64,000 nucleotides of DNA, from contig DATNEY010000026.1 of the NCBI GenBank assembly GCA_035606665.1, forward strand, positions 215,575-279,574, written 5' to 3'. This document shows positions 4,058 to 37,138 of the stretch, piece by piece. The notes beneath the pieces were generated by a model. The model was not told where the DNA came from. It worked only from the letters and a program-made list of their open reading frames with translations, and searched no databases. This DNA is from Vicinamibacterales bacterium (GTDB lineage Bacteria > Acidobacteriota > Vicinamibacteria > Vicinamibacterales > SCN-69-37). How positions within the stretch are numbered: position 1 is the first letter of the stretch; each line of letters begins with the position of its first letter. The position numbers and the translations under genes are program-made.

Positions 4058-4753
4058 CTACCGGCTCAGATCAATCCGGCTCAATTGACACGTGGAATCG
4101 GTGTGGAAGACAGCGAGGATGCTCACACGCCGCTCCTTCGCGAGGTCGGCGTTCGAAACTCCGAGTGCACGCTTCTGCGCGTCGGAAGTTCCCAGTTGCC
4201 GGAAGGCGGTGAGCGTGTTTCCTCGCCTAAGCCACCCTTGCAGCAAGGGTGAATGCGAATCTGAGTAGCTGGCGACCACGACGCAATCGTCCGGCATGCG
4301 GAGCTCGTTCACCAGGTAGTTCCGGACAGCCATGGCCCGGTCTTCGGCGAGTTGCTGGTTTCGTTTCCCCTCGGGCGACGCGTATCCAATGACCTGAAGA
4401 TGATTCGCTCCTCTTTCTCGGCTCTGTGCGCGGGCCCTGGCACTCTGCACAACCTGCTGAGCTACGCGGGCCACCGCCTGTGCGGTGTCAGGCGTCAGAG
4501 CAGATTGTCCGGCTTCGAAGAACCCCTGACCGGTGTTCTTCTCCGAAATGTCAATCAGCGTAGTCGGCAGAGTCGAGCGTGCCTTGCTCACATCCCGCCA
4601 ACCCAAAGCTGCGACGAGCAGGAACATCGCAAATAGCGAGAGCACGAGGGCCGCGCCCGGTCCAAAGTCATCATCCTCATGCGTTCCGACTTGCGGCGGG
4701 AGGCTCACCGAGATCCCAGTAACAGAAAGAGCAGCGTGAGACCAGACGCGCAC
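4058..4753 (-). CDS. MotB/OmpA-like protein: N-terminal TM with a conserved-Asp plug-like motif (DDDFGPGAALVLSLFAMFLLV) plus an OmpA-like peptidoglycan-binding C-terminal domain
   Basis: OmpA_C signature VIGYASPEGKRNQQLAEDRAMAVRNYL. TM segment with an acidic residue at its N-terminal edge as in MotB/ZorB/TolR. Start likely downstream of 4753 (alternative start), since it overlaps the upstream gene. Confidence 0.7.
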   Translation of the reverse strand: MRVWSHAALSVTGISVSLPPQVGTHEDDDFGPGAALVLSLFAMFLLVAALGWRDVSKARSTLPTTLIDISEKNTGQGFFEAGQSALTPDTAQAVARVAQQVVQSARARAQSRERGANHLQVIGYASPEGKRNQQLAEDRAMAVRNYLVNELRMPDDCVVVASYSDSHSPLLQGWLRRGNTLTAFRQLGTSDAQKRALGVSNADLAKERRVSILAVFHTDSTCQLSRIDLSR

Positions 4754-6183: not shown

Positions 6184-8314
6184 GCGCTCGAGTCGTGGGG
6201 GCAGGGCCGATCTGGAATGTCGGATCCATCGGCGTCATGATTGAACCTGTGCCGCGCTCGCGGTAGAGCGCCTCCAGATCCGCTTTGACCAGCTTCTTCC
6301 TGGCGTCGATCTCGGCCACCCTCTCGGTATCGCCCTCCACATACGCATTGCGCAGTTGGCTCGAAAGGTCATTCAGGATCAACTCAAAATCCCTCGTCTC
6401 GTTCTCCCAGTTCCGCAAAGGCCGGCCGACAGACTCGTCGTGGCGGAACCAATGAACGATCGCGATGCCAAGTCCAAGGTCCCGCGCGAGTCGCTCATTG
6501 ACCCAGCGTTCGGCGTGAACAACCACATCTCTGCTTGACGCAGAGACAAAGGTGCGTAGGTTCAAGCTGGAGTACTCGTTGATGAACGAGGCAACATGCT
6601 CGCGAACCGTTTCGGCCACGCGTTCGGGCGTCGGTCTCTTCTTCCGGAATTGCGAAAAATGCGTACCGGAAATGCTATTCACAGATGCGCGCACATCGAC
6701 GATGATCTTCGTATTAGGGTCTTCAACTCCTTTCAGGGCCAAGGGCGTCTCGACCAGGAGCTGGTAAGCTTTCATCAATTCGTCCTGACGAGGCGTAAAG
6801 TGAACAAGCGGTTCACTGTCCGGCTTGAATGGCTCACAGGCCGCTCTAATCGCTGACTCGAGCCGCGTCGCCACTGACACTTCGGACGAGCTCCCGTCGC
6901 CGAATAGGCGCAGGTAGAATTCCTCGGGGCTCGTCTTCCGAAGCTCCGCCGCCACGGTCGAGCGAATGCGTTCTTCGACCGTCTGGCGGATCCCGGTGTT
7001 CTTCTTGAATAGCGTGCCGAGCACTGACCGGTCGCCAATGCGCAGCCGCGTCTCGATATCCAGTACTACTTCGCACTCGCGTGACGCGAGTGGGAACGTT
7101 GCGTTTTCAATCGTGCATTCGAAGCCGCGCTGGAGAACGTCGAAATCAAGATTCGTCTGCAACACGAGCCGTGTCGCTGGCGCGTAGCCGATGTTTCGAG
7201 CCGCAGCTCGAATGGCCTCTTCCGTGTCATGAATCTTGTCGTCAAAGCAATCAAAGAGATCGACATAGTAGACGTCGAGAAGATGATGAGTAATAGCCTC
7301 CCGCACCGTCCTGCGAGCCCACGAATCGAGGTCGTCGTGATCGACACCGCTGCTCATCAACAAACCGAGATCCACGAGCTCGATTCGCAATGCGACATCA
7401 ACTTCGACTGGATCGGGATAGTCCAACTGCCGAAACTGCTCCTTGGTGATATCGATCTCGAACGAGCGCTGCACGCCGGCGACTGGCGGCTTCACGTCGA
7501 TCATGAGGCGAGCGACCTCGCGTCCCGCAGGTGCCGCCACAGCGGTAGCGACGGCTTCGACCATCGCTTTCAGCCGACCCTGGCTCTCGAACTGCCAGAG
7601 ATGGAGGCCGACCTGTGTTCGGAATAGGTCCCGCATCTCTCGCCTGAGCGTGTCTTCGACGATGTCACGACGGCCGGTAGGCATGAACGCGAGAACCGAG
7701 CCGGGCGCCAGGCGAAGATCGAGATCAAGCGACAGCTCCAGGTCCGGTTTGTAATCCCGGAGCACCACCGGCATTTTCGGAGCCCGAATCTCGAGTACCT
7801 CCTTGGCCTCGGCTTCGCCGCGAATCAGGATCTCAGCGCTCATAACTTGAAGGAGTGCTTCATCCTTGGCAACCTTGACGATGTGGGCTTTGAGGGGCTC
7901 CCTGAATCGGCCGAAGCTCTCGATAAACTGAGCGGGTGTTACGTTGCGGTCACCCATGAACCCGCCAATCCATCGATTGATGAGTATCTCGACAGCCCGG
8001 TCCGGATTGGGCGCCTCCCTCACCAGATCGACGAGCCTGCGCGCGTCGGCTTCCGTGTGGCCGGCAAACTGCAGCGCCAGGGATATCTGGAGCGGGAGCC
8101 GCCAGTCGCGCTCTGGAGCGTCGATGTCGCGGTCGATTCTGATGTTGGCCCACCCGGAATGAGCCTGCGGCCGGGTCACACAATAGAACCACTTTTCCGA
8201 GAACCAGCCACCAGCAACGGAGGCTTCGACGACGATTCCGTCAATCGCCGCCTCGTGTTTCTCGGACCGGTCGATTCTTCGAATAATCGGGTCCATTTGG
8301 AAATTGGTCGACAT
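6143..8314 (-). CDS. Hypothetical 723-aa cytoplasmic protein (possible SPFH-like repeats, unverified)
   Basis: Long ORF with high GC3 and no recognisable catalytic motif. Co-directional with, and overlapping, the flanking genes. Confidence 0.65.
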   Translation of the reverse strand: MSTNFQMDPIIRRIDRSEKHEAAIDGIVVEASVAGGWFSEKWFYCVTRPQAHSGWANIRIDRDIDAPERDWRLPLQISLALQFAGHTEADARRLVDLVREAPNPDRAVEILINRWIGGFMGDRNVTPAQFIESFGRFREPLKAHIVKVAKDEALLQVMSAEILIRGEAEAKEVLEIRAPKMPVVLRDYKPDLELSLDLDLRLAPGSVLAFMPTGRRDIVEDTLRREMRDLFRTQVGLHLWQFESQGRLKAMVEAVATAVAAPAGREVARLMIDVKPPVAGVQRSFEIDITKEQFRQLDYPDPVEVDVALRIELVDLGLLMSSGVDHDDLDSWARRTVREAITHHLLDVYYVDLFDCFDDKIHDTEEAIRAAARNIGYAPATRLVLQTNLDFDVLQRGFECTIENATFPLASRECEVVLDIETRLRIGDRSVLGTLFKKNTGIRQTVEERIRSTVAAELRKTSPEEFYLRLFGDGSSSEVSVATRLESAIRAACEPFKPDSEPLVHFTPRQDELMKAYQLLVETPLALKGVEDPNTKIIVDVRASVNSISGTHFSQFRKKRPTPERVAETVREHVASFINEYSSLNLRTFVSASSRDVVVHAERWVNERLARDLGLGIAIVHWFRHDESVGRPLRNWENETRDFELILNDLSSQLRNAYVEGDTERVAEIDARKKLVKADLEALYRERGTGSIMTPMDPTFQIGPAPTTRALGTPAAPDTEDEN

Positions 8315-8328
8315 GGCGCTCGCGCTCC

Positions 8329-10944
8329 TTACAGATCAAGTGAATGGGTCGTCGATGTCGAAGCCATCCGACGAAGCCGTCTCAACTGACTTCGCAGTCC
8401 CTTCAGGTGGGCTTCGATCGCGCGCCGGTCATTTGCCGGAAGAACTGGACCGGCGAGCAGTGTCGCCACTACGCGTCCGAAGCCGTCGTCAATTGCTCCA
8501 AGGCATTGCCGCAACGAGGCCAGACCGGCTTTCGGTACGACGGTGCGAAGCGAGGCACCCACCGCAAGCTCCGTCTTGTCGCCAGGAAAGCAAGTCAACC
8601 AGTCTGTCAGGGTCATCGCGCGAAACAGCACTGGTGAAGGACCAACGGCGCTCACCGTGTCCCGACTGGCTGCCGAGAAGGCCTCCCACCAGGCCATCAG
8701 CAGAATCGGCGCCGCTTCCAACGCGTCGCTCATCACGCGCCGGCGCAGGGAGAGAGGGAACATCCACAAGCCGGGCAATGCGGCCACGCGAATAGCGCGT
8801 GCCTCGATGGTCCTCGTTGCAAGCGGATGCCACAGCCACGAGACAAGACTCTGAACCTGACCCTGTTCGCCATCTTGAAGCACTCCCCCAAGAGGAGAGT
8901 GGACTTGAAGTCCGGCGAGGGACGACTCACAGATCTCCACCAGGAGACGCGCTGCGACCTCTTCTCTCAGGTTGGAACCTGACGCGTCGATGGGAATCCA
9001 GTCCGGTCCCCATAGCGTCGAGATTGGCAAACTGCCTTGCCGGATGGCTCCGCGCATCTGCCGAACGACCTGATCCCTGACGTCTGAAGGCGCCTCACTT
9101 AGGAGCCGTTTTGCCAGAGTCAGCGAACCCTGGAGAAGACCACCGACGCCCCAAAGTCGTCGAAGAAGCCCTGCCGCGAGCCAATGAGCGCCCAAGTCGA
9201 TGAAACGGCCCACGGCAGAAACTGCGCGATCGGGCTGGTGCCACTCGCGAATAACGTCCCCGGTCCAGACGAGTAACGCGGCACGCCGCTCCCTCGTCAA
9301 GCTCTGCCACAGAAGTGCCAGGCGTTCGTTCTCGCCGACGGCTCCTCCGGCGGCCGGTGCGCACGCCAGAATCCACTGCGCCAGTACCTGGTTGTCGTAC
9401 GTTGGGCTGGCGATAGCCTGAACCGCCGCCACCTGCGATGCGCCCCGCGACATATCCTCCTGCCCGAGGATGAACTGTGGGTCGCGAACGTAACCAGCGA
9501 GCCGGCCGAACACCCACTGGAATTGAGACTCCCCAAACAGCGCGGTCAGCTCGCCCCGCCAGGACCGATCGCCCAGCGCCGCAATCACAGCCCCGGAGCT
9601 CGACTTCAGAATGCGAATGCCGCAGGCAGACATCAACTGAGTTGCCTGGCGCCGCCACATTCGCTCGAGGCGGAACGCTGGGCTATCGTCAGGAGTTGCG
9701 CCGGCCGCAAGACAGGCGTCAGGTGCGGCGAACGGGATAAGTGTTCGGACGATGACATCGAAGCGGTCGAGGGGCAAGCCCGGCAGTGGCTCTTCGGGAT
9801 TCTCCCGGAAGAACGCGATCACGAAAAGAATTAGTTCGTTGAGAGCGCGCTCTTCGGGGGGTTCTACGTTCAGTAGTGCGTTCCACGTGGGAGGGTTGTC
9901 GTCACGGCATGCCGGGCCACCTTCGATCCCGTGTGCTCGGTCGATTCGCTGTTTGAGGCTTCCATCCGCGGCACCTTGAGTGAGCAATTCTGCGACACGT
10001 TCGTCCGTGCCGCCCCACAGTCCAGCCTTTCGTTGTCGCATGAACTCCTGTTCAAGAACGGCGGCGGCGCCACCAAAGGCGGCACGCAGACGGGGACCAA
10101 CGAAATCGACTTCGGTTTCCACCCATTCTCTCGGCAGCCCACCCTGTAGTCCGGCCGCCTTCATCAAGCTTGGAGTCGTGAGAACCAGGACCCAAGTGGC
10201 CGTGTCTTCAAGAACGCGTTCGAGGTCGGTCCGCCGGTACGGATCAATGCACAGGCTGGTCAGGAATCTTTCGGCAGACCTGTCCGCAGCGTAGACAACA
10301 ACAACTGCTGGGTCTCCTGTTCTTGACTCCAGGAGGTCCCACACGACAGGCATTTCGCCGCGAACGACCTGAAGCTTGCGGCATGAGACAAACTGGGACT
10401 GGAACGGCACCAGCCGAGCGGCCGAATTCAACACATCCCTATCGACGCATGTCAGAAACAGGACGCGGCGTTCATGTAGGCACCTTGCCCATCGCTCAAC
10501 AGCGGACGAGTCAAGCGGGACGAGCCCGACCGTGTTTGAATGCAGGGCCTCCAGGTACTGCTGTGGATTCTCCCGGTCCTCCTGGAATGCTTGCGTGATG
10601 TTGTTGATGATGGTGGTCGTGTTGGAGGTGCTGGTGATGTTGCCCCCCACTACCTGAGTACGTGCCACAGCCACGCCAGACGGAAACACAGTGTCTGTCT
10701 TAGCGGCGAGCGCGTCGCGCTGATCAGCCAAATCACCGTCGATGACGGTGGAGGCCTGCGGCGCTGACATCGCCGGCTCTGGCACGGGCGGTGGACGCTT
10801 CTCCACTAGAGCGCTACCGCACTCGCCGCAGAACTTCACGCCCGCCGAAAACTCGCGGTTGCAGCCAGCGCACCGCAATGGCGGTGCGACGGACACATCC
10901 GCTCGTTCCTGCGATTCAGCCACGTCCGCCGTCGGGTCCGCCAT
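8329..10944 (-). CDS. Hypothetical 871-aa protein with N-terminal zinc ribbon (CAGCN-x11-CGECG)
   Basis: Long ORF, first gene of a four-gene minus-strand operon. No Walker or other motifs recognised. Confidence 0.7.
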   Translation of the reverse strand: MADPTADVAESQERADVSVAPPLRCAGCNREFSAGVKFCGECGSALVEKRPPPVPEPAMSAPQASTVIDGDLADQRDALAAKTDTVFPSGVAVARTQVVGGNITSTSNTTTIINNITQAFQEDRENPQQYLEALHSNTVGLVPLDSSAVERWARCLHERRVLFLTCVDRDVLNSAARLVPFQSQFVSCRKLQVVRGEMPVVWDLLESRTGDPAVVVVYAADRSAERFLTSLCIDPYRRTDLERVLEDTATWVLVLTTPSLMKAAGLQGGLPREWVETEVDFVGPRLRAAFGGAAAVLEQEFMRQRKAGLWGGTDERVAELLTQGAADGSLKQRIDRAHGIEGGPACRDDNPPTWNALLNVEPPEERALNELILFVIAFFRENPEEPLPGLPLDRFDVIVRTLIPFAAPDACLAAGATPDDSPAFRLERMWRRQATQLMSACGIRILKSSSGAVIAALGDRSWRGELTALFGESQFQWVFGRLAGYVRDPQFILGQEDMSRGASQVAAVQAIASPTYDNQVLAQWILACAPAAGGAVGENERLALLWQSLTRERRAALLVWTGDVIREWHQPDRAVSAVGRFIDLGAHWLAAGLLRRLWGVGGLLQGSLTLAKRLLSEAPSDVRDQVVRQMRGAIRQGSLPISTLWGPDWIPIDASGSNLREEVAARLLVEICESSLAGLQVHSPLGGVLQDGEQGQVQSLVSWLWHPLATRTIEARAIRVAALPGLWMFPLSLRRRVMSDALEAAPILLMAWWEAFSAASRDTVSAVGPSPVLFRAMTLTDWLTCFPGDKTELAVGASLRTVVPKAGLASLRQCLGAIDDGFGRVVATLLAGPVLPANDRRAIEAHLKGLRSQLRRLRRMASTSTTHSLDL

Positions 10945-11162: not shown

Positions 11163-11870
11163 TCACCGCCGCGACTCCGGGCCGAGGTGGCGCAAGAGAA
11201 TCGGGCGCACAATCGGACCGCCTTGTCGATTAACGACATAGGTCCCGACCTCGCCGGCCGTAACTTCCACGGTTTCCACAATCAGGTTCCTTGCCCCGCG
11301 GGCCAGGAACGCCGCCCGGGCCTCATCGCCTTCAACGAGGTCGAGCGACGGCAACTCACTTCTCAGTCGAGCGAAGCAAAGGAGCAGACGCTCGTCCTGT
11401 GCCGGAGGCTGGAAGCGAATCAGAGGACTCACGTAGTCCTGGGTCGCCTTGACGGGCGTGCCCGCCGTATCGCCGTCTACAGGCAGCAACAGGGACGCCC
11501 GTCCCGATGTGTTCAGCGCCCAGACAGAAAGGAATCCGTCGACATTGGTTCGGACATGAATGCGGATCCGATCGCCGGACGCGAAGGAATGCGTGTCCGC
11601 CACAGGCCCGCGGCCTGTCAAGTCAATCCAGTAATGCACTCCAACGGATCGCGTACCCGTGGGAACCGGCGCCACTGGGCGAGGCGCTCCCGTGCTCGAC
11701 GCCGGTGGGGTCGCCGGCACGCGGGGCGGCGACGGAGCAGCCTTCGCCGTCGATCCTGTTGCGGGGTTGTAGAACAGTGACCGCGCGCCGGTCGGCTCCT
11801 GGACACCCATGCCGGCTGCCAGCGCAACCGCGGCGAATGTCGTCGAGAGCCGCGTCATGCCTGATCGCAT
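11163..11870 (-). CDS. Secreted DUF4384-like domain protein (caspase-associated beta-sandwich)
   Basis: Signal peptide. Motif GDRIRIHVRTNVDGFLSVWALNTSGRASLLLP is typical of the DUF4384 family that commonly accompanies bacterial caspase-domain proteins. Confidence 0.6.
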   Translation of the reverse strand: MRSGMTRLSTTFAAVALAAGMGVQEPTGARSLFYNPATGSTAKAAPSPPRVPATPPASSTGAPRPVAPVPTGTRSVGVHYWIDLTGRGPVADTHSFASGDRIRIHVRTNVDGFLSVWALNTSGRASLLLPVDGDTAGTPVKATQDYVSPLIRFQPPAQDERLLLCFARLRSELPSLDLVEGDEARAAFLARGARNLIVETVEVTAGEVGTYVVNRQGGPIVRPILLRHLGPESRR

Positions 11871-11895
11871 TGGTCGTGCCCTTCCATCTGGTCAG

Positions 11896-13191
11896 CTAGC
11901 CGCCAGGCTTCCTGGCGATCCGATCCTTCAGATACAGGTTCACCGAATCGCGGCTCCGTACGATCATCGGATGCTGCGACTCGCGCTTTTCGCTCATTAC
12001 GGCATCCGTGACTCGGAGCCTCACATGGCCGAAGACATCGTCGACGGACAACGGGCCTGGTTTCGTGAGCGCATCGAGCAAGAAATAGGTGAAGTAGCCG
12101 TGTTGAATCTTGTCGTCCTCCCAGGACCGCTCGGCCTGACTGCTCGACGTTATGATGATGCGGCCCACGCCCTGGGGGACCCGGCCTCTGCCGATTTCTG
12201 ATCCGGTATCAACCACCAGTGATCGCGACCCCGCCAGACCCTCTTCCAACCGGGCCATCGACACGCCAGTCTCGGTCGTCAGGGCGCGACTGCTGGCGGT
12301 CCATCCCGACGGCAACTCTTTGTAGGTGCCGCCGCTATAGCACGTGTCGAGGAACGCGATGACGCGTTCCGACTTGATTCGACTGCCGAGCGCTCTGAGC
12401 AGGTCGTCCATCGCGTAAGCAGTCGAGTACAGGCCGCTGACCTCGGTGTCGTACGTGACGATGTAATTCACACCGGCCGTGTCGAGATTCTCAGGAGACC
12501 CATGGCTGCTCATGTAGACCACCACGAGGTCCTCTGGTTCGGCATTCTTCGCGAGGTAGTCGATCTCCATCGTAATGTTCTTGCGCGTCGCCGCTTCGTC
12601 CAGGAGTGTCTTGACGGAGTCGAACTCGCAGCATTGCTTGAGTGCCGCGGAGACCGCCTCCGCATCACGTGCGGTGTACTTGAGCGCGTTGATTCTCGGG
12701 TCCTGAAAACGGCTGATTCCCACTACCAGTGCCCACCTCTTGCGCACGACCGAGGAAACGTGGATGGCGGGCACTGCCGGTGGCGGTGAAGCTACGCCTG
12801 GGGAGCGGACGGCTCCTGCGGCCGAGGTGGATGTGCTGGCCAGGGGCACCGGCGCATACAGCGACTCGCCGTTGCGCATCGCGGCAGAGTTCCAGGTCTC
12901 GGCCTGTTTGCGCCAGTACTGCGCTTTGGAGTCCTTCAGTTCTGCGCCAACAAGGCTCAGGAAATACCATGCATCCCCAAGGCCTGCGCAGAAGTCTGTC
13001 GCGCGCTTCAGATTCTGCAGAGCATCTTCAAGACTTGCCCGCTCGGCGTTCGGCTTGAGACTCTCACGCGTGCTCCGGACGAGCTCTGCCGCGGTATCGC
13101 ACCTGGTACCCTGCTCGGCAGAACCGGACGTGGACCCATACGGAAACGCGAGCGCGCAAACCCCGACGACCAACCATTTCAGAGAAGTCAT
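11896..13191 (-). CDS. Secreted caspase-like (peptidase C14, orthocaspase) protein
   Basis: KRWALVVGISRF...YMSSHGS (His) ...IAFLDTCYSGG (Cys) catalytic dyad contexts. Signal peptide. C-terminal HGYFTYFLLDAL block. ATGA start/stop overlap with the upstream gene. Confidence 0.85.
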   Translation of the reverse strand: MTSLKWLVVGVCALAFPYGSTSGSAEQGTRCDTAAELVRSTRESLKPNAERASLEDALQNLKRATDFCAGLGDAWYFLSLVGAELKDSKAQYWRKQAETWNSAAMRNGESLYAPVPLASTSTSAAGAVRSPGVASPPPAVPAIHVSSVVRKRWALVVGISRFQDPRINALKYTARDAEAVSAALKQCCEFDSVKTLLDEAATRKNITMEIDYLAKNAEPEDLVVVYMSSHGSPENLDTAGVNYIVTYDTEVSGLYSTAYAMDDLLRALGSRIKSERVIAFLDTCYSGGTYKELPSGWTASSRALTTETGVSMARLEEGLAGSRSLVVDTGSEIGRGRVPQGVGRIIITSSSQAERSWEDDKIQHGYFTYFLLDALTKPGPLSVDDVFGHVRLRVTDAVMSEKRESQHPMIVRSRDSVNLYLKDRIARKPGG

Positions 13192-14552
13192 TGCGCCGAC
13201 CAGTTCCAGTTTCCTGGACCTCCACTTGGTGTAGACACAAGTGGAGCTTTCTTGGTCGCCTGTCTCGCACGTATGGCTGCCATGACCTTGGCTGAGACCT
13301 TCCCGGCCAGGAGCTGCTTGTAACCCTCAGGTGACAGGTCGAACGCGACGGTCTTGGCGTTCTTGATGGCATCGAGGAGGCTGGCTTCGTCCAGGCCGCC
13401 CGCGACGAGTTCAACCACATCCTTATTGCCGAACGCTGCTGGCTTCGTCGTAGCCGGCGGAGTCGTCGTGAGTGCCCTGGCGCCAGACTTGCTGCTTGCG
13501 GAATCAGCCGCCTGTTTGGCGGCGGCCGCCGCCGCGATAATGGCCTGTTGACGTTCGAGTTGGGCGTAGGCCGCGATGCCCTCCTGGATTCTGATCTGGG
13601 GGGTCTGGAAGTACTTTTCGTCGACCTTCATTTCGATGGCTCTTCCGTAGAGGCTCGAGGCTTGCTCGAGCAATTTCTTCGACGTCGGGATGTCCTCAGA
13701 GCTGTAGGCCATGGCTTCCCTGGCGACGCCGAGATTGAACAGCCGATACGCTTCCTTCTTTGGATCCTTCAGCGGTGGTATCTGTTCCAGTTGCTCCAGC
13801 ATGCGATTCCACAGTCCCGCTTGACCGAGCTTGTTGATCTCGTCGATGGCGTCCGGTCGGGCGAGCATTACGGTTACCGGCTCGGTCGTGGGCGTCAGCC
13901 GACGCATCACCTGCTCGACGGCTGAATCGATCAACAGTTGTTCCACGCGGCTTTGGTCGGGTGGCGTCGTGCCAGCCAGGAACTCGCGCGTGTAGGTGGG
14001 CGTGAACGACTGCGAATCAATGGAGGCCCCGCTGACGCGATCCTGGACCTGGACGGCGACCGCCAAATCACCCTGCACCGCGGTGAAGTGTTGCGTCTCG
14101 TTCACGGTCGAGTACACATCCTGAGTTTCGTATGCTTTCTTCTTGGCGTTCCACACCTGCTTCGTGCCCGTCTTCTTGCTGACCTGCACTTGACGCTGGC
14201 CCGCCGACTGCTTGGTGTCGAGCCTGCTGATCGTGCACATGATGAGCGTATCTGGTTGAGCCGTTTCAACCCGTAGCCGTGCGTCACCGGCCAGGAGGCG
14301 CGTCTCGACCGTGGATTTGAACCGCTGTGCGATGTTCTCGCGCCCATTTGTCTGGGAAACGACCTCGACTTTGATTGCGGTACCGGTAATCAGCACTGTC
14401 GGAGGGTGCTTTCGATTCAGCGTGACCTCAGTTTTTTGCTGCGTAAGTCCCTTGCGGAATTGGGCTTCGGCCCGGGGCGGATTCCCCAACGCTACCGCGA
14501 CAACGACACTGGCAACGCCTGCAGCAAGAACCGTGTGGACGCTTCTCATCAT
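13188..14552 (-). CDS. Secreted hypothetical protein (start reassigned to the ATGATG at 14552, overlapping the upstream stop)
   Basis: SD GGAGGA then ATGATG. Signal peptide MMRSVHTVLAAGVASVVVAVALG. The ORF-track N-terminal extension is low-complexity. Confidence 0.7.
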   Translation of the reverse strand: MMRSVHTVLAAGVASVVVAVALGNPPRAEAQFRKGLTQQKTEVTLNRKHPPTVLITGTAIKVEVVSQTNGRENIAQRFKSTVETRLLAGDARLRVETAQPDTLIMCTISRLDTKQSAGQRQVQVSKKTGTKQVWNAKKKAYETQDVYSTVNETQHFTAVQGDLAVAVQVQDRVSGASIDSQSFTPTYTREFLAGTTPPDQSRVEQLLIDSAVEQVMRRLTPTTEPVTVMLARPDAIDEINKLGQAGLWNRMLEQLEQIPPLKDPKKEAYRLFNLGVAREAMAYSSEDIPTSKKLLEQASSLYGRAIEMKVDEKYFQTPQIRIQEGIAAYAQLERQQAIIAAAAAAKQAADSASSKSGARALTTTPPATTKPAAFGNKDVVELVAGGLDEASLLDAIKNAKTVAFDLSPEGYKQLLAGKVSAKVMAAIRARQATKKAPLVSTPSGGPGNWNWSAQ

Positions 14553-15433
14553 TCCTCCTCGACCTTCGTCAAGTTCTCGAAACGTACCCGTCCGTGCAGC
14601 GGCTGCAACATGGCGTCCGATCGGGCGTGTTCGGCGAGTGCCGCCCTGGTCATGCCCGGAGCGTTGGCGACCGCCATCAAGGCGGTACCCAATGACTCGA
14701 GCGCCCCGTCCGCTCGCCCGCTCAACGCCAGGGCGCAGGCGAGGTTGTAGTGCGCCAGCCAATTCGCCGGCGCAACCCTGATGGCGGCCCTGCACGATGC
14801 TTCCGCGCTGGCCACCTGGCCTGCCTGCAATTCCGCGCCGCAGAGGTTTGCAAGGACGGCTGCATTGGACGGCTCTCGCACGGCGAGTTCCGTGAACGCT
14901 CGGAGCGCCTCCGTCGTGCGTCCGTCAGCAGCCAGCGCGATTGCGGCCTCGAGTGTCACCAGCGGCGGAGCGCCCCCGTCGGAGTTCTGCACGGTATTCG
15001 CGTTCGCTTGCTCGACTCCCCGGCCGTCGGCGGAACTGCGGGTCACCCACATCGCAAGCACCACAACCGCGATGATCGAAACCACACCCATCAACAGGCC
15101 GCCAGCGATATTCACCCGCGAGTGCTTGACGCTACTGTCGACGTTGCTGGTAATCGTCGTGGCCCGTGACGAGTGATCGTCGTTCGTGACGGTCGTGACC
15201 GAGCGACTGTCCCGGACCGAATGGTCGTCTCGAGTGGAATGGTCGTCGCGGGTCGAACTCGACTGCGCCGAACTGTGGATGTTCGTCTCGCTGTAGTCGG
15301 CGCCCGTGTCGCCCTTCGACTGTGAGATCGTCGCTGGCGTAGCCGGCGGCCGTACCACGCGCAGCGCGCCGCCACAGGCGAGACAGAACTTCCCCGAAGC
15401 CTCCTGTCGCCCGCACTGAGCGCATTCCAACAT
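14549..15433 (-). CDS. Membrane-anchored protein: N-terminal zinc ribbon, STRDDHS-repeat linker, single TM, C-terminal TPR repeats
   Basis: CAQCG...CLACG. TM GGLLMGVVSIIAVVVLAMWV. TPR-like helices (AEASCRAAIRVAPANWLAHYNLACALALSG). The N-terminal ~100 aa are near-identical to the protein at 28021. Confidence 0.8.
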   Translation of the reverse strand: MLECAQCGRQEASGKFCLACGGALRVVRPPATPATISQSKGDTGADYSETNIHSSAQSSSTRDDHSTRDDHSVRDSRSVTTVTNDDHSSRATTITSNVDSSVKHSRVNIAGGLLMGVVSIIAVVVLAMWVTRSSADGRGVEQANANTVQNSDGGAPPLVTLEAAIALAADGRTTEALRAFTELAVREPSNAAVLANLCGAELQAGQVASAEASCRAAIRVAPANWLAHYNLACALALSGRADGALESLGTALMAVANAPGMTRAALAEHARSDAMLQPLHGRVRFENLTKVEEE

Positions 15434-15678
15434 CGACTACTCCTCGGCTCAGCCAGCCGATCTCGACGGGTTCAGCGCAGACCGTGCATTGCACTGAATA
15501 AGTACCCCCAAGATGACTTTAATGGACTCTAATTATCCGAGGAGTATACTCCCGCCGCCCGGCCGGGTTCAACTGGTGACTTGGCACGGCGCCTGGGCGG
15601 CCCGTGGCAGGGCAAGCTGGCAGGTCATAGGAAGGTATTACCCTGAAGTTCTGGAACCGTCTATATAATTGATGGCAA

Positions 15679-16521
15679 GTGTTCGGCTTCCTGCTCGGCA
15701 TCCTTGCTCGGCCCGTCGGTAAAATGCTGCTGGGTGCCGTTGTTGTCCTCCAAGGTTATTTGCTGTTCCGCCCGCAAGATCCGCTGGGCTTCGCGGGCCA
15801 TTCTGTGGTGACTCAGACCGCCGCCGCCGTGGCAGCGGATCTGCCTGATAGGAAGGGACTGACGACCCTTGCGGTGCTCCCGTTCGTCAATGACTTCAAT
15901 GCGGTCGTCGCCGGCCAGGTGAAGGATGCGATCCTCGAACGAGGCCGCTATGAGGTGTTGGACGAGTCTTTCTTCAGGCGGTTGCTGAACGAAGCCAGGG
16001 GCGGCGCTGCGCCGATCGCGGACCTGAAAGAGGCCGTGGCTGCCGCCCGCCGAATTGGCGTTGACGCGGTCGTGTTCGGGGAGGTGTCGCGGTTGACACG
16101 CGAGCCCGGGCAAGCAGATCTCGCGTTGAATCTGCGAATGGCCGAACGTGAGTCGGGCCAAGCCGTCTTTGCCCGCCAATATGAGGACCGTGCCGGTGGC
16201 AACTCGACGTCGGTCGCCTATTGGCGCGCAAGACTGGCAGACAGTTCCACGCCGCAGCGTATTCTGGCGTGGACCTGCATCGTGCTGCTCGCGCCGCTCG
16301 TCGGCGCTGGCCTCATCCGACGGGTGACGGCTGAGGAATCGAATCTCCGAAATGGCGTGCTGCTAGTTGCGATGACAGGCATTGACGTGCTTCTGGCCTG
16401 GGGACTCACGGGATTCTGGATCGCGTCCTGGGGGACCGCTGCCGCGATCGCCTTGGCAGCGGCCGCCAGCCTGGCGTACAACTACAAGGTAGCGTCGATA
16501 ATTGACGATTTGGCCCAGTGA
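15679..16521 (+). CDS. Membrane protein with FlgO/CsgG/LpoB-like domain and C-terminal TM helices
   Basis: Block LAVLPFVNDF...GVDAVVFGEVSRL. Hydrophobic C-terminus. Confidence 0.55.
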   Translation: MFGFLLGILARPVGKMLLGAVVVLQGYLLFRPQDPLGFAGHSVVTQTAAAVAADLPDRKGLTTLAVLPFVNDFNAVVAGQVKDAILERGRYEVLDESFFRRLLNEARGGAAPIADLKEAVAAARRIGVDAVVFGEVSRLTREPGQADLALNLRMAERESGQAVFARQYEDRAGGNSTSVAYWRARLADSSTPQRILAWTCIVLLAPLVGAGLIRRVTAEESNLRNGVLLVAMTGIDVLLAWGLTGFWIASWGTAAAIALAAAASLAYNYKVASIIDDLAQ

Positions 16522-16567
16522 GCAGGAAGTATCAACGCCGTGGTAGGTGGAGAGTCCATCTTAGTTC

Positions 16568-16595
16568 TTGACAGGGTAAAAGATTACTTTAGAAT
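16568..16595 (+). promoter_or_regulatory. Sigma70-like promoter TTGACA-N16-TAGAAT with a CAGGGTAAA motif abutting the -35
   Basis: Exact hexamers. Near-identical architecture to the promoter at 21034. Confidence 0.55.
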
Positions 16596-16623
16596 GGAGT
16601 CGAGTGCTCCGTTCGTGGTGAAA

Positions 16624-16839
16624 ATGCGAATGACGAAGACACCAACGAATCTCATGACGGTGGAGGAGGCTGCGGCCTACCTCAAAGTCGATCCCAAGAC
16701 GGTCTACCGGTTGATCAACGACAAGGAAATCAAGGCATTCCTCGTGGGGCGGGTGTACCGATTCGAGATGAAGGACATCGAGGACTTCGTCCAGAAATCC
16801 AAACTGAAGGTCCAGCGCGCGGCGAAGCGGAGCTACTGA
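16624..16839 (+). CDS. Excisionase-family helix-turn-helix DNA-binding protein (HTH_17/MerR-like)
   Basis: MTVEEAAAYLKVDPKTVYRLINDKEIKAFLVGRVYRFEMKDIEDFV matches the excisionase-family HTH pattern. The ORF-track start at 16540 overlaps the promoter, so a downstream Met (16624, 16630 or 16654) is the likely start. Confidence 0.6.
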   Translation: MRMTKTPTNLMTVEEAAAYLKVDPKTVYRLINDKEIKAFLVGRVYRFEMKDIEDFVQKSKLKVQRAAKRSY

Positions 16840-16857
16840 GCTTCTGGCAACTGGTCC

Positions 16858-17460
16858 ATGGGCCTTTTCAAGTCTAAAGAGGAGCGACGGCTCGAGCGGA
16901 CGATGAAAGTCCGCCAGGCTGTCGCGCAGCTCAGGCGCCAGATCAAGGACAGCGAAAAGCACGAAACGGCCTATGTCCAGAAGGCCAAGCGGTCCCGCAA
17001 GCTCGGCTGGAACAACCAGTACGAGTTCCTCAAGAAGGCGATCAAGAAGACCGCCACCGTAAAGGTCCAGCTCGAACGACAGCTTCTTGCGCTCGAGTCG
17101 GCTTCCCAAATCAAGGAACAGACCGAAAGCCACGCGCAGTTCGCGTCGGCAATGTCCGCGCTCTCGAAGAGTATCTCCGAGGCTTTTGGCATCACCGATC
17201 TCGCCAAGACTCAGGTGAACTTCGAGAAGGCCATGGCGCAAGCCTCGAACCTCGAAGAGCGCATGGACACGTTCCTGGACATGACGTCGGAAACGATGTT
17301 CGGCTACGAGGGCAGCCCGGAAGGCGAACTGGTGAGCGACGCCGACATCGACAGAATGCTGGTCGACGAGGTCACACGCGAAGAGAGGACCGACACGGGT
17401 CTCGACCTCGACGCGGACATCGCATCCGTCGAACGGGAACTGGATCGGGCAAAGAAGTAG
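16858..17460 (+). CDS. Snf7/ESCRT-III-like (CHMP2/Vps2-like) coiled-coil protein with C-terminal MIM-like helix
   Basis: MGLFKSK N-terminus. The helical layout is colinear with CHMP2A (basic N-half, acidic C-half). The C-terminal DLDADIASVERELDRAKK resembles the MIM1 of CHMP2A, DADADLEERLKNLRRD. Confidence 0.65.
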   Translation: MGLFKSKEERRLERTMKVRQAVAQLRRQIKDSEKHETAYVQKAKRSRKLGWNNQYEFLKKAIKKTATVKVQLERQLLALESASQIKEQTESHAQFASAMSALSKSISEAFGITDLAKTQVNFEKAMAQASNLEERMDTFLDMTSETMFGYEGSPEGELVSDADIDRMLVDEVTREERTDTGLDLDADIASVERELDRAKK

Positions 17461-17741: not shown

Positions 17742-19073
17742 TCATTTCACCAGATTCCGCCGCGGCGGAACGGGTTCGGCGATCCTCGGCAACGTGAGGC
17801 CATCAAAGATCAAGTTGTGAAGTGAATAGGATCTTCTTGTGCCCGTCGTGACAACGCCGACCACGAATTCGGCACTGAGTTGAAACGACTTCGGAGCGGC
17901 ACCGGAATTCGTTTCGCTCGCATCCTGAACGAAGCTCATGGTAACTGCAATGTTCTGCCCAGCGGGGATGGGCGTTGTGGACCCGTACACGAACTGGTAG
18001 GGACCGCAAGTCGCGCCTTCCCGGATGTCCGTCGCAGTTTGTGAACCAGTGCCTTCCCACCTTTGAAGAACCAGCACGATCTCGGCAGGATTGTACTCGG
18101 CGCGACCCGGCGCACAGCTGTCCGCACTTCGTCCCACTCCGACAACACTCACGCCAGTAACCGCAGAAGGTGATAGGCGCCAGACCGTGCCTCGCTCGTC
18201 GATGAGGCTGGTCCGCAGGGACGCACCCATCTCCGTACCTTGTCGCTCTGGTGCAGCATCAGCATTCATCGCCACAACCATGGGCCTCTGAAGATCGCGG
18301 TTCAAGAGCTCGATCGAAAGCCTGAACCCGCTTCTGCTTCGACCGTCCTGTCCCTGGAGGCGCATCGGGACGGCCGATTTGAGAACCACACGAAGAGCCC
18401 CGACGTCCTTCGAAGCAATGGCATTGCCTTCGCGATAACTCGGAGTCCCACCGCCACCGCTTGCGGAGTCACCCGCGGGTGCCGTTGCCGTCGTCGAACC
18501 GGCGAACAGCCCTCGATTGAGCAGTTGCTGGATGTCGCTGGTCGTCGGGAAGGTGATCCTGCCGGCGGTGACGATCCGCGATGACTCCGTAGCAATGGCT
18601 TTGACTGTAAGAGTGATCTTCGCATCAAGGGAAGTTACTGTCCCCATCAGGAAGACATCAACCCCCGCGAACTCGCCCAGTTTCTTGGCGTTCGCTGGAT
18701 TGACCAGGCCTTGCACCGTCAGCTTGTTTTCCGCCAGGATGCGATTGGTGTTGGCGCGGTCCAGCATCGAGATGCCGCCGGCGAGCACCATCTCGACGGT
18801 CAGGAGCTCCGACAGGTGGCGCCCCAGTTCGGTCGGCTGTCCCTGGATGTCCGTGAAATCGACCGCGGCTACGTTCTTGATGCCTTGGCTCGCCAGCGCC
18901 TTGCCCAGGTTGGCCGCGAGCGTGGACAGTTCCTTGTCCAGCGATTGTGCCTGTACCTCCGTCGATTGTGCCCGTACCTCCGTGTTGATCGCGAGGCTGA
19001 GCGCAAGGACAACCATCAGTTTCACTGCCGCCAGGATCTTCAAAGTGAACCTCCAACCTGCGCGATGACGCAC
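17742..19073 (-). CDS. Lipoprotein/secreted protein with FlgO/CsgG/LpoB-like domain (paralog)
   Basis: VAAVDFTDIQGQPTELGRHLSELL...DRANTNRILAENKL...GVDVFLMGTVT. GTG start. 21-bp tandem duplication (TEVRAQS x2) in the signal region. Confidence 0.75.
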   Translation of the reverse strand: MRHRAGWRFTLKILAAVKLMVVLALSLAINTEVRAQSTEVQAQSLDKELSTLAANLGKALASQGIKNVAAVDFTDIQGQPTELGRHLSELLTVEMVLAGGISMLDRANTNRILAENKLTVQGLVNPANAKKLGEFAGVDVFLMGTVTSLDAKITLTVKAIATESSRIVTAGRITFPTTSDIQQLLNRGLFAGSTTATAPAGDSASGGGGTPSYREGNAIASKDVGALRVVLKSAVPMRLQGQDGRSRSGFRLSIELLNRDLQRPMVVAMNADAAPERQGTEMGASLRTSLIDERGTVWRLSPSAVTGVSVVGVGRSADSCAPGRAEYNPAEIVLVLQRWEGTGSQTATDIREGATCGPYQFVYGSTTPIPAGQNIAVTMSFVQDASETNSGAAPKSFQLSAEFVVGVVTTGTRRSYSLHNLIFDGLTLPRIAEPVPPRRNLVK

Positions 19074-19424: not shown

Positions 19425-20909
19425 GTGCCGATGTTCTGCGGGTCCTGCGGTACCGCCAATCCCGACACGAACAGATTCTGTCGGAGCTGCGGCCGTTCCC
19501 TCGCCGCTGATTTCGCCGCAGCCCCGGCCGACGCGCTCGACGCTCGCGCGACCGTCATGGGCCTGCGCGCGGGCCAGATACTGAGCGATCGCCACGTGCT
19601 GGAGCGACTGCTCGGCCGAGGCGGAATGGGCGAGGTGTGGCTCGCGCGTGACCGGACGTTGGACCTGCCGGTCGCGATCAAAGTCGTGAGCGAACTGCTC
19701 GCGCGCGATGCGCAGGCGATGGCGCGGCTGCGCGTCGAGGCGCGGACAACCATTCCCCTCCACCACCCCCGCATTGTCCGGGTCAATCACTTTGAAAACC
19801 AGGGGCCGGTGACGTTCCTGGTGATGGAGTACATCGAGGGCGAGACGCTCGCCCAACGGCTGGCGCGAGAAAGGCAACTGCCCGAAGTTGACGCCCGTCG
19901 GATCGGACTGGCGGTGACCGAAGCGTTGGCTTACGCGCACGAACACCGTGTGTTGCATCGGGACATCAAGCCGGCGAACGTACTGCTCGGCGTAGATGGA
20001 GCGGTCAAGCTCGCGGACTTCGGGATTGCTCGTGCTGCTACGGATTCGCTGTCGCGACTGACGGGGTTGCAGACGTCGGGGACACTGCTCTATATGGCGC
20101 CGGAGGTCGTCGAAGGCGAACCGCCCCTGCCCGCGGCGGACTGGTATTCACTGGGGGCGACATTGTATGAACTCGTGACTGGTATGCCGCCGTTCCATTC
20201 CGGCGACCTGACCTATCAGATCCTGCACAAGACACCGACGCCGCTCGAGGGCGTTAGCGCCGTTTTTGGGGCACTGGTGGCGACGCTGCTGGCGAAGAAC
20301 CCGGCCGCGCGGCCGGCGGCGACCGAGATCCGCGAGACGCTCAGTGGGACGTTCGGGCGCCGGCAGAATCGAGAAGCCCAGGATTCGCAATCGGGGCGCG
20401 GCCCTGATGTTGTCATCGAGCATCCCATTGACCTCACGCTCGAAGATGCATTCACAGGAACAATCCGTCGCGTCCTGATTCCGCATGAGGGTCGCCAGGA
20501 CCGCACCGTTGATACGGCGGGGCCCACGAGCCTGAAGGTGCCCGAATCCACGCGATCGGGAGGTCTTCCGGCTAAGAGTCTTGGCATGCCGACCACGAGT
20601 AGGCCGGATGAGCGTGGCGATCTTCACGTGACCACGGATGTCGCAGTTCCATCGCTGTCGGACGGCGAATCGCGGCGCGCCCGGCGTATTCGCCGCGCCC
20701 TAATCGCAGCGCTGGCGCTCGCTATCGCAGGCGGCTCCCTCTACTGGTTCTACGGACGTCAACTGTTGGCGAGCGAACTGGAGTACACGCTGCCCCAGCG
20801 CGCCCAACAGCGGATGCCGCAGGTCGCGCCGGCGATCGGGATGCCGACGGATGCCGAACTTGAGGCCTATTTTAGGGAAATGCTGGGGATGGAAGTGGGA
20901 CGGAATTAG
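19425..20909 (+). CDS. Ser/Thr protein kinase with N-terminal zinc ribbon, DnaJ-C-terminal-like domain and C-terminal TM
   Basis: CGSCG...CRSCG. Kinase motifs GRGGMGEVW, AIK, HRDIKPANVLL, DFGIAR. The segment IEHPIDLTLEDAFTGTIRRV...GDLHVTTDVAVP resembles the DnaJ CTD. Confidence 0.9.
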   Translation: MPMFCGSCGTANPDTNRFCRSCGRSLAADFAAAPADALDARATVMGLRAGQILSDRHVLERLLGRGGMGEVWLARDRTLDLPVAIKVVSELLARDAQAMARLRVEARTTIPLHHPRIVRVNHFENQGPVTFLVMEYIEGETLAQRLARERQLPEVDARRIGLAVTEALAYAHEHRVLHRDIKPANVLLGVDGAVKLADFGIARAATDSLSRLTGLQTSGTLLYMAPEVVEGEPPLPAADWYSLGATLYELVTGMPPFHSGDLTYQILHKTPTPLEGVSAVFGALVATLLAKNPAARPAATEIRETLSGTFGRRQNREAQDSQSGRGPDVVIEHPIDLTLEDAFTGTIRRVLIPHEGRQDRTVDTAGPTSLKVPESTRSGGLPAKSLGMPTTSRPDERGDLHVTTDVAVPSLSDGESRRARRIRRALIAALALAIAGGSLYWFYGRQLLASELEYTLPQRAQQRMPQVAPAIGMPTDAELEAYFREMLGMEVGRN

Positions 20910-37068: not shown

Positions 37069-37138
37069 CCAACGTAAGCCGACTCTGATTCCTGGTTCTC
37101 AGTCGATCGGGATGGAATCCCGAGAAAAGAAGGTAGCG

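What the first reader, a model, noticed from the sequence alone, without database searches (positions are those of the whole stretch)
11163..15433. Caspase operon: zinc-ribbon/TPR membrane protein, secreted unknown, secreted orthocaspase, DUF4384 protein, all translationally coupled
Genes overlap by ATGA at 14549-14552 and 13188-13191. The caspase-like protein carries a signal peptide (periplasmic caspase). It is followed by a DUF4384-type beta-sandwich and preceded by a membrane protein whose cytoplasmic zinc ribbon could relay a signal. Together these suggest a trans-envelope proteolytic signalling module.
Basis: partly seen in the sequence, partly recalled or inferred. Interest (0 to 1): 0.6.

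Follow-up and report, generated by a model that had tools for sequence, protein, structure and literature searches.

The report
Secreted caspase with conserved partner protein
This soil-bacterium (Acidobacteriota) operon encodes an exported, apparently active caspase-like protease whose gene is almost always fused head-to-tail with that of an undescribed exported partner protein, so the two probably work together outside the cytoplasm, though nobody has tested what they do.

Summary
The four minus-strand genes and both ATGA overlaps are real. C and D are separated by 25 nt, so "all translationally coupled" overstates it.

- **C** is a Peptidase_C14 protein with an invariant His230/Cys284 dyad, both acidic S1-pocket Asp residues, a Sec-type leader and a conserved Cys pair.
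- **D** is a divergent DUF4384 protein.
- **A** is a four-Cys zinc-ribbon motif, one TM helix and a TPR domain.

The main result concerns the "secreted unknown", B. It belongs to an undescribed family with no Pfam, NCBIfam or PDB sequence match (296 cluster representatives at E≤1e-30). Its model has an LptE/PelC/CsgG/LpoB-like fold plus a helical domain.

In 94 of 104 informative loci across Acidobacteriota, a full-length C homologue lies directly downstream of B, most often with a 4-nt overlap. B and C divergence correlate (r=0.91). A and D occur only in the window's lineage. However, TPR and DUF4384 recur around B–C elsewhere, fused to a CHAT protease and to a second caspase.

In one orthologous operon, A's cytoplasmic head is a Ser/Thr kinase plus cyclase.

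Best reading: a regulated extracytoplasmic protease module with core B–C. Signal relay through A is plausible but unproven. I rate it a new variant of a known kind, of moderate interest.

The parts
14549..15433 (-). Gene A, 294 aa: a bitopic membrane protein. N-terminal four-Cys zinc-ribbon motif (aa 4-20, nt 15374-15424). Low-complexity cytoplasmic linker. One TM helix (aa 109-130, nt 15044-15109). TPR domain predicted to be periplasmic (aa 161-252), with a TPR_END cap (aa 227-289).
   Evidence: The TPR-outside orientation is inferred from the L088 orthologue, which carries kinase + cyclase N-terminal to its TM helix.
13188..14552 (-). Gene B, 454 aa: an exported protein of an undescribed family. 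Leader aa 1-30, with predicted cleavage at AEA|QFRKG. LptE/PelC/CsgG/LpoB-like alpha/beta domain (aa ~38-231) with long lysine-rich beta-strands. TPR/MIT-like helical domain (aa 234-354). Disordered linker. Small helical C-terminal domain (aa 374-434).
11896..13191 (-). Gene C, 431 aa: an exported C14 orthocaspase. Leader aa 1-25. Helical N-domain aa 27-106 with conserved Cys31 and Cys68. Disordered linker. Caspase domain aa 143-425 with His230 (nt 12502-12504), Cys284 (nt 12340-12342) and S1-pocket Asp176 and Asp282. A lineage-specific Arg-containing insert at aa 288-342 follows the catalytic Cys.
   Evidence: Pfam. Alignments. PDB sequence match to Yca1. AF2 model pLDDT 83.9. Foldseek hits to MALT1, GSU0716 and metacaspases.
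11163..11870 (-). Gene D, 235 aa: an exported protein with a divergent DUF4384 domain (aa 96-149, nt 11424-11585).
   Evidence: The 25-nt gap to C is read.
14549..14552 (-). ATGA overlap of A's stop codon with B's start codon, preceded by GAGGAGGA.
   Evidence: Read directly.
13188..13191 (-). ATGA overlap of B's stop codon with C's start codon. The same 4-nt overlap is the modal arrangement across the phylum.
15543..15572 (-). Sigma-70-like promoter match (TTGAAC-18-TATACT) about 110 nt upstream of A, in the 245-nt divergent intergenic region.
   Evidence: This is a consensus match only.

Best explanation
This is the Vicinamibacterales version of an Acidobacteriota-wide extracytoplasmic protease module.

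**Core.** The core is a co-translated pair:
- C is a Sec-exported C14 orthocaspase predicted to be active and Arg/Lys-specific. It carries an N-terminal disulfide-type helical domain.
- B is an exported, non-enzymatic partner built from an LptE/PelC/LpoB-like domain, a TPR/MIT-like helical domain and a small C-terminal domain.

**Inferred mechanism.**
- B binds C, probably B's helical domain to C's N-domain, and controls where and when the protease acts in the periplasm.
- The periplasmic TPR of the membrane protein A and the secreted DUF4384 protein D act as docking or substrate-recognition accessories.
- Proteolysis at A, or of a ligand held by A or D, is communicated through A's single TM helix to its cytoplasmic head. 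That head is a zinc ribbon here and a Ser/Thr kinase plus cyclase in an orthologue.

**Shown versus inferred.**
- Shown: gene order, conservation, catalytic and S1 residues, folds, export signals and domain swaps.
- Inferred: B-C binding, the protease's targets, and any signalling.
For: **B and C are linked.**
- C lies directly downstream of B in 94 of 104 informative distinct loci. The modal distance is -4 nt.
- An independent gene call also gives a 4-nt overlap (L123).
- All 3 caspase homologues looked up from the C side have B directly upstream.
- Pairwise identities of B and C correlate at r = 0.91, with 0 of 999 Mantel permutations reaching that value.
- B's helical domain tracks C's N-domain (partial r 0.55) more than it tracks the catalytic domain (0.30).
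- In L120, C's catalytic domain is 52% identical to the window's, the similarity does not extend into C's N-domain, and B has dropped to 26%.

**C looks like an active protease.**
- His230, Cys284, Asp176 and Asp282 are each conserved in 63 of 63 homologues.
- The two Asp residues align with the S1 Asp residues of Yca1.
- The model has a caspase fold.

**Export.**
- C homologues keep their leaders.
- Cys31 and Cys68 are conserved in 63 of 63.
- B's fold class is otherwise made up of envelope proteins.

**Accessory domains recur around B-C.**
- Terriglobia loci carry [C14+DUF4384] - B - C - [TPR+CHAT], all with leaders.
- Other loci carry B - C - CHASE2.

**Link to the cytoplasm.**
- In L088 the A-equivalent is Pkinase + Guanylate_cyc + TM + TPR.
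- The full A-B-C-D operon occurs in the window, L003/L004, L088 and L121. L087 is a truncated contig with at least A-B-C.
Against: - There is no experimental data on any member.
- Ten loci carry B without an adjacent caspase, so B is not strictly dependent on C in cis.
- A and D are detectable only in the window's lineage.
- A's zinc ribbon is not conserved among its own orthologues. It is also a very common N-terminal module in this genome region: 7 proteins in 35 kb.
- TPR is a promiscuous domain.
- The covariation statistics are confounded by shared phylogeny.
- No complex could be modelled with these tools.
- Signal-peptide calls are heuristic.
Confidence: 0.42

Rival explanations
1. An envelope-maintenance or maturation protease with no signalling role. 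B-C processes or turns over periplasmic, outer-membrane or surface proteins. B's LptE/PelC/LpoB-like domain targets the protease to an outer-membrane or peptidoglycan-associated machine. A merely tethers it to the inner membrane.
For: - The pair is found across the phylum, and its divergence follows taxonomy: Vicinamibacterales 45-62%, Blastocatellia 39%, Terriglobia and Bryobacterales 27-35%. This looks like an old, vertically inherited function.
- All of B's fold relatives are envelope-assembly or ring lipoproteins.
- In Terriglobia the neighbours are further secreted proteases, with no membrane signalling protein.
Against: - B has no lipobox, whereas most of its fold relatives are lipoproteins.
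- Membrane-spanning sensor-type proteins recur next to B-C: CHASE2, and kinase-cyclase-TM-TPR.
Confidence: 0.25
2. B is not a regulator. It is either the dedicated substrate or pro-protein, or the dedicated inhibitor ('immunity' protein), of the caspase. It is made first to protect the periplasm.
For: - B precedes C and is translationally coupled to it.
- B has long exposed lysine- and arginine-rich beta-strands: 8 K/R in 48 residues. These would suit an Arg/Lys-specific protease.
- B's mature N-terminus, [AG]|Q-x-F-x-G, is conserved across the phylum.
Against: - The RK dipeptide at B's N-terminus is conserved only in the window's clade.
- B exists without C in 10 loci.
- B has no similarity to any known protease inhibitor.
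Confidence: 0.15
3. An anti-phage or programmed-cell-death effector. The operon belongs to a defence island, and the periplasmic caspase destroys envelope proteins on infection.
For: The window neighbourhood holds the following:
- IetA/IetS-like genes at 21085-25486 (PADLOC 1.9e-33 and 1.7e-10).
- A weak ZorA/MotA-like protein plus an OmpA-like pair.
- Kinases, an FHA protein and AAA ATPases.

The caspase-like DdvA protein regulates a defence island (PMC11506125).
Against: - A, B and D match no PADLOC model, and C matches only the generic caspase model.
- The flanking genes E-H and the divergent operon are not found next to B-C in any other locus.
- B-C sits in ordinary and varied contexts elsewhere.
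- Divergence follows taxonomy rather than a mobile pattern.
Confidence: 0.08
4. A nutritional secreted protease. C is exported to digest environmental protein, and its neighbours are incidental.
For: Acidobacteriota secrete many hydrolases (own knowledge). C has a Sec leader.
Against: - Strict translational coupling to a non-enzymatic partner across the phylum.
- A conserved regulatory-looking N-domain.
- Association with sensor-type membrane proteins.
- A narrow Arg/Lys-type pocket.
Confidence: 0.07

Closest known systems
Orthocaspases and metacaspases (MEROPS C14B; e.g. Microcystis MaOC1, yeast Yca1 4F6O, Geobacter GSU0716 3BIJ)
   Same: - Pfam Peptidase_C14.
- His-Cys dyad.
- Two acidic S1-pocket Asp residues, which predict cleavage after Arg or Lys.
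- Caspase-haemoglobinase fold.
- Definitions follow PMC5756287.
   Different: - C is exported: Sec leader plus a conserved Cys pair.
- It carries a conserved ~80-aa helical N-domain.
- The S1-pocket Cys of TbMC2/AtMC9 is replaced by Thr here (alignment).
- It is always paired with B.

N-terminal TM helices or leaders on prokaryotic metacaspases were already noted in a 2012 survey (PMC3501461) but have not been studied.
Myxococcus xanthus DdvA (anti-sigma factor: cytoplasmic zinc-bound domain, TM helix, periplasmic TPR-CHAT; PMC11506125)
   Same: A zinc-binding cytoplasmic head, a single TM helix, a periplasmic TPR, and a caspase-superfamily protease in the periplasm. The published model is periplasmic proteolysis that starts a signal to the cytoplasm.
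   Different: - There the protease (CHAT, with an incomplete active site) is fused to the TPR in one chain. Here the protease is a separate soluble C14 enzyme with a complete dyad.
- A's head is a CxxC...CxxC ribbon, not a CHCC anti-sigma three-helix bundle.
- No ECF sigma gene is adjacent.
- B has no counterpart in DdvA.
LptE / PelC / CsgG / LpoB / TolB-N / TraT-type envelope proteins
   Different: - No sequence-level relationship was found: no Pfam hit, and hhalign probability 0.1 against the window's own CsgG/FlgO-like protein.
- B has no lipobox.
- B has extra helical and C-terminal domains.
- Ring formation is untested.
Caspase-DUF4384 and kinase-DUF4384 fusion proteins
   Same: DUF4384 is a known companion of p20 domains and of kinases (PMC6426788). 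In Terriglobia loci a C14+DUF4384 fusion sits next to B-C.
   Different: In the window, DUF4384 is a separate 235-aa secreted protein and is a divergent member (25.8 bits). An HMM built from D and its orthologues does not detect the fused Terriglobia copies.
Cyanobacterial metacaspase-CHASE2 fusions
   Same: They link a caspase homologue to an extracytoplasmic CHASE2 sensor (PMC3501461). CHASE2 genes follow B-C in about 30 loci.
   Different: In cyanobacteria the caspase is predicted to be cytoplasmic and is fused to the sensor. Here the caspase is exported and the CHASE2 protein is a separate gene. The window has no CHASE2 gene.

Membership tests
Peptidase C14 (caspase / metacaspase / orthocaspase) - gene C | Sequence match to PF00656 above the gathering score | tested here: met
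   86.6 bits against a cut-off of 21.4, E 2.7e-24.
Peptidase C14 - gene C | Catalytic His-Cys dyad | tested here: met
   His230 (SSHGSP) and Cys284 (LDTCYSGG) are invariant in 28 homologues and in 63 of 63 B-linked homologues.
Peptidase C14 - gene C | Caspase-haemoglobinase fold | tested here: met
   AF2 model pLDDT 83.9. Foldseek probability 1.00 to MALT1, GSU0716, metacaspases and caspases.
Orthocaspase/metacaspase subtype (basic P1 specificity) | Two acidic residues in the S1 pocket | tested here: met
   Asp176 and Asp282 align with the Asp residues of GCxND and DSCHSG in Yca1 and are conserved in 63 of 63. The pocket Cys is replaced by Thr.
Orthocaspase subtype | Demonstrated Arg/Lys-specific proteolysis; absence of a separate p10 domain | not testable with these tools
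   Activity needs biochemistry. Residues 343-422 complete the fold in the model, but p10 status was not analysed.
EACC1-associated caspase (NCBIfam NF047832) | Score above the curated cut-off | tested here: not met
   83.7 bits against a cut-off of 140.
DUF4384 (PF14326) - gene D | Sequence match above the gathering score | tested here: inconclusive
   Window D scores 25.8 bits against 27. Its orthologues give 28.9 bits in L088 and 22.5 bits in L003, and the family is on record for L121. No solved relative was found.
TPR proteins - gene A | TPR repeats above the gathering score | tested here: met
   TPR_19 at 33 bits against 25, and TPR_2 at 29.1 against 27. TPR_END_plus at 36.3 against 32.
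Zinc ribbon - gene A N-terminus | Two CxxC knuckles and a family match | tested here: inconclusive
   C4xxC7-x9-C17xxC20 is present. The DZR hit is only E 0.0045, 17.6 bits against 27.3. Metal binding is untested.
DdvA-type / ZAS transmembrane anti-sigma factor | Anti-sigma zinc domain, an adjacent ECF sigma gene, and a protease fused to the TPR | tested here: not met
   No anti-sigma or sigma-70 family hit was found in A or in neighbours within about 10 kb. The protease is a separate gene.
LptE/PelC/CsgG/LpoB-like envelope lipoproteins - gene B | Shared fold | tested here: met
LptE/PelC/CsgG/LpoB-like envelope lipoproteins - gene B | Sequence-family membership and lipoprotein signal (lipobox Cys) | tested here: not met
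   No Pfam or NCBIfam hit. hhalign probability 0.1 against a CsgG/FlgO-like protein. The mature N-terminus is Q-x-F-x-G with no Cys.
Known anti-phage defence systems (PADLOC) | Match of the system's proteins to PADLOC models | tested here: not met
   Only the generic 'caspase' model hits C. A, B and D have no hits.
Sec-exported proteins - B, C, D | Cleavable signal peptide | tested here: inconclusive
   n/h/c regions and AxA-type sites were identified by eye and by hydropathy. Leaders are conserved in 63 C homologues and 26 B homologues. No SignalP or DeepTMHMM was available.

The most novel reading that the evidence does not exclude
B is a ring- or scaffold-forming periplasmic platform, like its fold relatives PelC, CsgG and TraT. 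It assembles and activates the exported caspase, making an extracytoplasmic bacterial counterpart of a caspase-activation platform. The activated protease cleaves the periplasmic TPR domain of bitopic proteins such as A. This starts a regulated-proteolysis pathway that controls cytoplasmic zinc-ribbon, kinase or cyclase heads. If so, it would be a previously unrecognised trans-envelope signalling route characteristic of Acidobacteriota.
Probability: 0.12. Interest if true: 0.8.

Novelty: new variant of a known kind. Interest (0 to 1): 0.52.

Why it matters
Bacterial caspase homologues are numerous, but only a handful have been studied, and almost all of those are cytoplasmic. This work defines a phylum-wide, exported caspase with an obligate partner of an undescribed protein family, together with a recurring set of accessory domains: TPR, DUF4384, CHAT and CHASE2.

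That gives a concrete, testable two-protein unit for asking what caspase-type proteases do in a bacterial cell envelope. Acidobacteriota are among the most abundant and least understood soil bacteria.

It also supplies a new protein family (B) that merits a family model in the databases.

Tried and rejected
- **Homologues of A's periplasmic domain**. The search returned a single hit, so fusion statistics for A could not be built that way. An HMM of the five A-type TPR domains found only generic TPR proteins beyond the orthologues.
- **Home-made greedy gene callers**. Both mis-called overlapping genes. I replaced them with clustering of raw ORFs across loci. Clusters c18, c20 and c23 proved to be Arg-rich off-frame or antisense artefacts.
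- **Profile comparison of B with the window's CsgG/FlgO-like protein**. No relationship was found.
- **B and D against PDB sequences**. Nothing useful.
- **afdb50 fold library**. Not available.
- **E-F-G-H downstream and the divergent membrane/HTH/Snf7-like operon upstream.** I considered them as parts of the system and rejected them, because they accompany B-C in no other locus. A promoter-like site (10 of 12 matches) also precedes E.
- **Terminator after D.** None was found, and the intergenic RNA fold is not significant (z -1.1).
- **Tandem repeat in A's linker.** Not supported by TRF.
- **Lipoprotein status of C.** Only 6 of 63 homologues have a lipobox-like motif.
- **Paralogues of B or C in the window.** None.
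Full report
**Source.** Proteins identical to the window's are on record from a 711,930-bp metagenome contig (ENA ERZ27256670 k141_1044100). NCBI lists them as 'caspase family protein' and 'hypothetical protein' of a Vicinamibacterales bacterium MAG, phylum Acidobacteriota. The window is about 62% G+C.

**Observation.** Four minus-strand ORFs occupy 11163-15433:
- A, 14549-15433, 294 aa
- B, 13188-14552, 454 aa
- C, 11896-13191, 431 aa
- D, 11163-11870, 235 aa

GAGGAGGA lies just before B's start. C and D are separated by 25 nt, so D is close to C but does not overlap it. A sigma-70-like match lies about 110 nt upstream of A, and another (10 of 12 matches) lies in the 218-nt gap between D and the next gene. 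A-D is therefore most simply one operon.

**The parts.**

*Gene A.* A has a CxxC-x9-CxxC motif at its N-terminus, with only a sub-threshold DZR hit. It then has an 85-residue low-complexity linker, one hydrophobic helix at aa 109-130, and C-terminal TPRs with a TPR_END cap.

*Gene C.* C is Peptidase_C14 (86.6 bits).
- In an alignment of 28 homologues, His230 and Cys284 are invariant.
- In 63 distinct B-linked homologues, His230, Cys284, Asp176, Asp282, Cys31 and Cys68 are all 100% conserved.
- The two Asp residues align with the S1-pocket Asp residues of yeast metacaspase Yca1. This predicts cleavage after Arg or Lys, as in metacaspases and orthocaspases (PMC5756287).
- The AF2 model (pLDDT 83.9) has a helical N-domain (aa 24-106), a disordered linker and a caspase domain. 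Foldseek matches the caspase domain to MALT1, Geobacter GSU0716, metacaspases and caspases.
- Every C homologue keeps a leader with a basic n-region, a hydrophobic core and an A-x-A|Q...RC site. Only 6 of 63 have a lipobox-like motif.
- The leader, together with the invariant Cys pair, argues for export.

*Gene D.* D is a divergent DUF4384 protein: 25.8 bits here, 28.9 bits in the L088 orthologue, and on record for L121.

**The unexpected centre: gene B.**
- B matches nothing in Pfam, NCBIfam, PADLOC or PDB sequences.
- It nonetheless belongs to a well-conserved family: 296 representatives of 50%-identity clusters at E≤1e-30 and 776 at E≤1e-10. Nearly all sources are Acidobacteriota, spanning Vicinamibacterales, Blastocatellia, Terriglobia and Bryobacterales.
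- Its AF2 model is confident (pLDDT 86.6).
- There is no lipobox. The mature N-terminus, [AG]|Q-x-F-x-G, is conserved across the phylum.

**Synteny.** I fetched 113 loci that encode B relatives and searched them with the window's proteins.
- Of 112 distinct loci, 104 have enough downstream sequence to be informative. In 94 of those, a full-length C homologue follows B directly on the same strand.
- The modal distance between B's stop and C's first start codon is -4 nt, seen in about 55 of 94 loci. An independent gene call in L123 gives the same 4-nt overlap.
- Starting from the caspase side, all three homologues I looked up have B directly upstream.
- Pairwise identities of B and C correlate at r = 0.91, with 0 of 999 Mantel permutations reaching that value.
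- B's helical domain tracks C's N-domain (partial r 0.55) more than it tracks the catalytic domain (0.30). In L120 the catalytic domain is 52% identical to the window's, the similarity does not extend into C's N-domain, and B is only 26% identical.
- These last two observations are weak, phylogeny-confounded hints of a contact between B and C's N-domain.
- Ten loci have B without an adjacent caspase.

**Accessory genes.**
- A and D are detectable only in the window's lineage. The full A-B-C-D order is seen in L003/L004, L088 and L121. L087 is a truncated contig with at least A-B-C.
- A's cytoplasmic head varies among these orthologues:
  - a zinc ribbon in the window;
  - no ribbon in L003;
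  - a 45-aa tail with three Cys in L121;
  - Pkinase + Guanylate_cyc in L088, N-terminal to the TM helix.
- A kinase must be cytoplasmic, so the orthologous TPR domain lies outside the cytoplasm.
- In Terriglobia the pair is flanked by a secreted C14+DUF4384 protein (800-900 aa), often a TAT-signal protein of about 380 aa, and a secreted TPR+CHAT protein of about 1000 aa.
- In other lineages a CHASE2 membrane protein follows B-C.
- So TPR, DUF4384, extra caspase-superfamily proteases and extracytoplasmic sensor domains recur around B-C in rearranged forms. This supports a functional link between A, D and the core, even though A and D themselves are lineage-specific.

**Mechanism.** The evidence shows an exported protease with an intact catalytic site and an acidic S1 pocket, co-produced with a dedicated non-enzymatic partner.
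- I infer that B binds and positions or regulates C in the periplasm.
- I infer that A's TPR and D's DUF4384 act as docking or recognition modules.
- Relay to the cytoplasm through A is possible. The kinase-cyclase orthologue and the CHASE2 neighbours favour it.
- The M. xanthus anti-sigma factor DdvA (zinc domain, TM helix, periplasmic TPR-CHAT; PMC11506125) is a published analogue. However, A lacks an anti-sigma domain, and no sigma gene is nearby.
- Rival readings are an envelope-maturation protease without signalling, B as substrate or inhibitor, a defence or cell-death role, and a digestive role. Each is weighed in its own section of this report.

**Context and novelty.**
- The window's first 40 kb form a dense island of signalling and defence-like genes. 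None of these genes accompanies B-C elsewhere.
- Leaders on prokaryotic metacaspases were already noted in 2012 (PMC3501461). The DUF4384-p20 association is also known (PMC6426788).
- I found no paper that uses any phrase for a periplasmic or secreted metacaspase or orthocaspase. B has no family model in the databases.
- I therefore rate the finding a new variant of a known kind. The caspase itself is ordinary. The obligate B-C module and its extracytoplasmic setting are the new part.

Noticed in passing
window 21085-25486 (+), also 26767-28002: An AAA ATPase matches PADLOC IetA (E 1.9e-33). After a 196-aa ORF comes a 908-aa S8 subtilase matching IetS (E 1.7e-10). This is probably an Iet-type anti-phage system. 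A second AAA ATPase lies just downstream.
   Followed up: partly
window 4058-10944 (-): Directly downstream of the caspase operon lie four genes: an 871-aa protein with an N-terminal zinc ribbon and no other hit, a 723-aa protein with no hit, a multi-TM protein with weak ZorA/MotA/ExbB matches (E 1.2e-6), and an OmpA-like protein with an N-terminal TM helix (MotB-like). This may be a Zorya-like or stator-coupled system. It is not found next to B-C in any other locus.
   Followed up: partly
window 1603-34420: Seven proteins within about 35 kb begin with the same CxxC-x9-13-CxxC zinc ribbon:
- A
- the 871-aa protein
- two Ser/Thr kinases (1603-4035 and 19425-20909)
- 28021-29061
- a DZR+Band_7 protein (31017-32984)
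- 33008-34420

An A-like TPR gene also sits next to a DZR+Band_7 gene in a related contig.
   Followed up: partly
window 368-1585 (+), 17742-19073 (-), 29058-30104 (+), 36986-38356 (+): Four secreted paralogues have a CsgG/FlgO-like N-terminal domain. Two of them are 40% identical over that domain. They share a fold class with B's N-domain but have no detectable sequence relationship to B.
   Followed up: partly
window 15679-17460 (+): A divergent operon lies upstream of A. It encodes a 280-aa membrane protein with a weak DUF2380-type hit, an HTH_17 protein and a 200-aa Snf7-like protein (ESCRT-III/PspA-type, E 1.5e-4). It is not conserved with B-C elsewhere.
   Followed up: no
window 34417-35643 (+) and 38882-40231 (-): An FHA-domain protein and an M23 peptidase complete the signalling and envelope flavour of the island.
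   Followed up: no
L028, L040, L042, L044, L050, L052, L055, L063, L101, L102, L123 (Terriglobia loci): An alternative operon built around B-C: a secreted Peptidase_C14+DUF4384 protein (800-900 aa), an uncharacterised TAT-signal protein of about 380 aa (in about half of these loci), B, C, and a secreted TPR+CHAT protein of about 1000 aa. That places up to three caspase-superfamily proteases, all exported, in one cluster.
   Followed up: partly
L011, L013, L014, L016, L018, L020, L034, L047, L058, L064, L069, L093: Downstream of B-C-CHASE2 lies a small secreted low-complexity protein with a conserved 'ERMSTRGLKPP' motif. The Arg and Lys residues in this motif make it a candidate substrate for an Arg/Lys-specific protease.
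   Followed up: no
L121:1-5700: In one A-B-C-D locus, the genes upstream on the same strand are a 1501-aa CHAT protein and a 981-aa Tubulin_2 protein.
   Followed up: no
L087:3-836, L088:588-2774 and L121:5727-6572: A-type proteins in these loci carry an extra helical segment between the TM helix and the TPR domain (e.g. 'LLRTVYADGIKTKEEQTEIEQ'). The window's A lacks it. Its nature was not examined.
   Followed up: no
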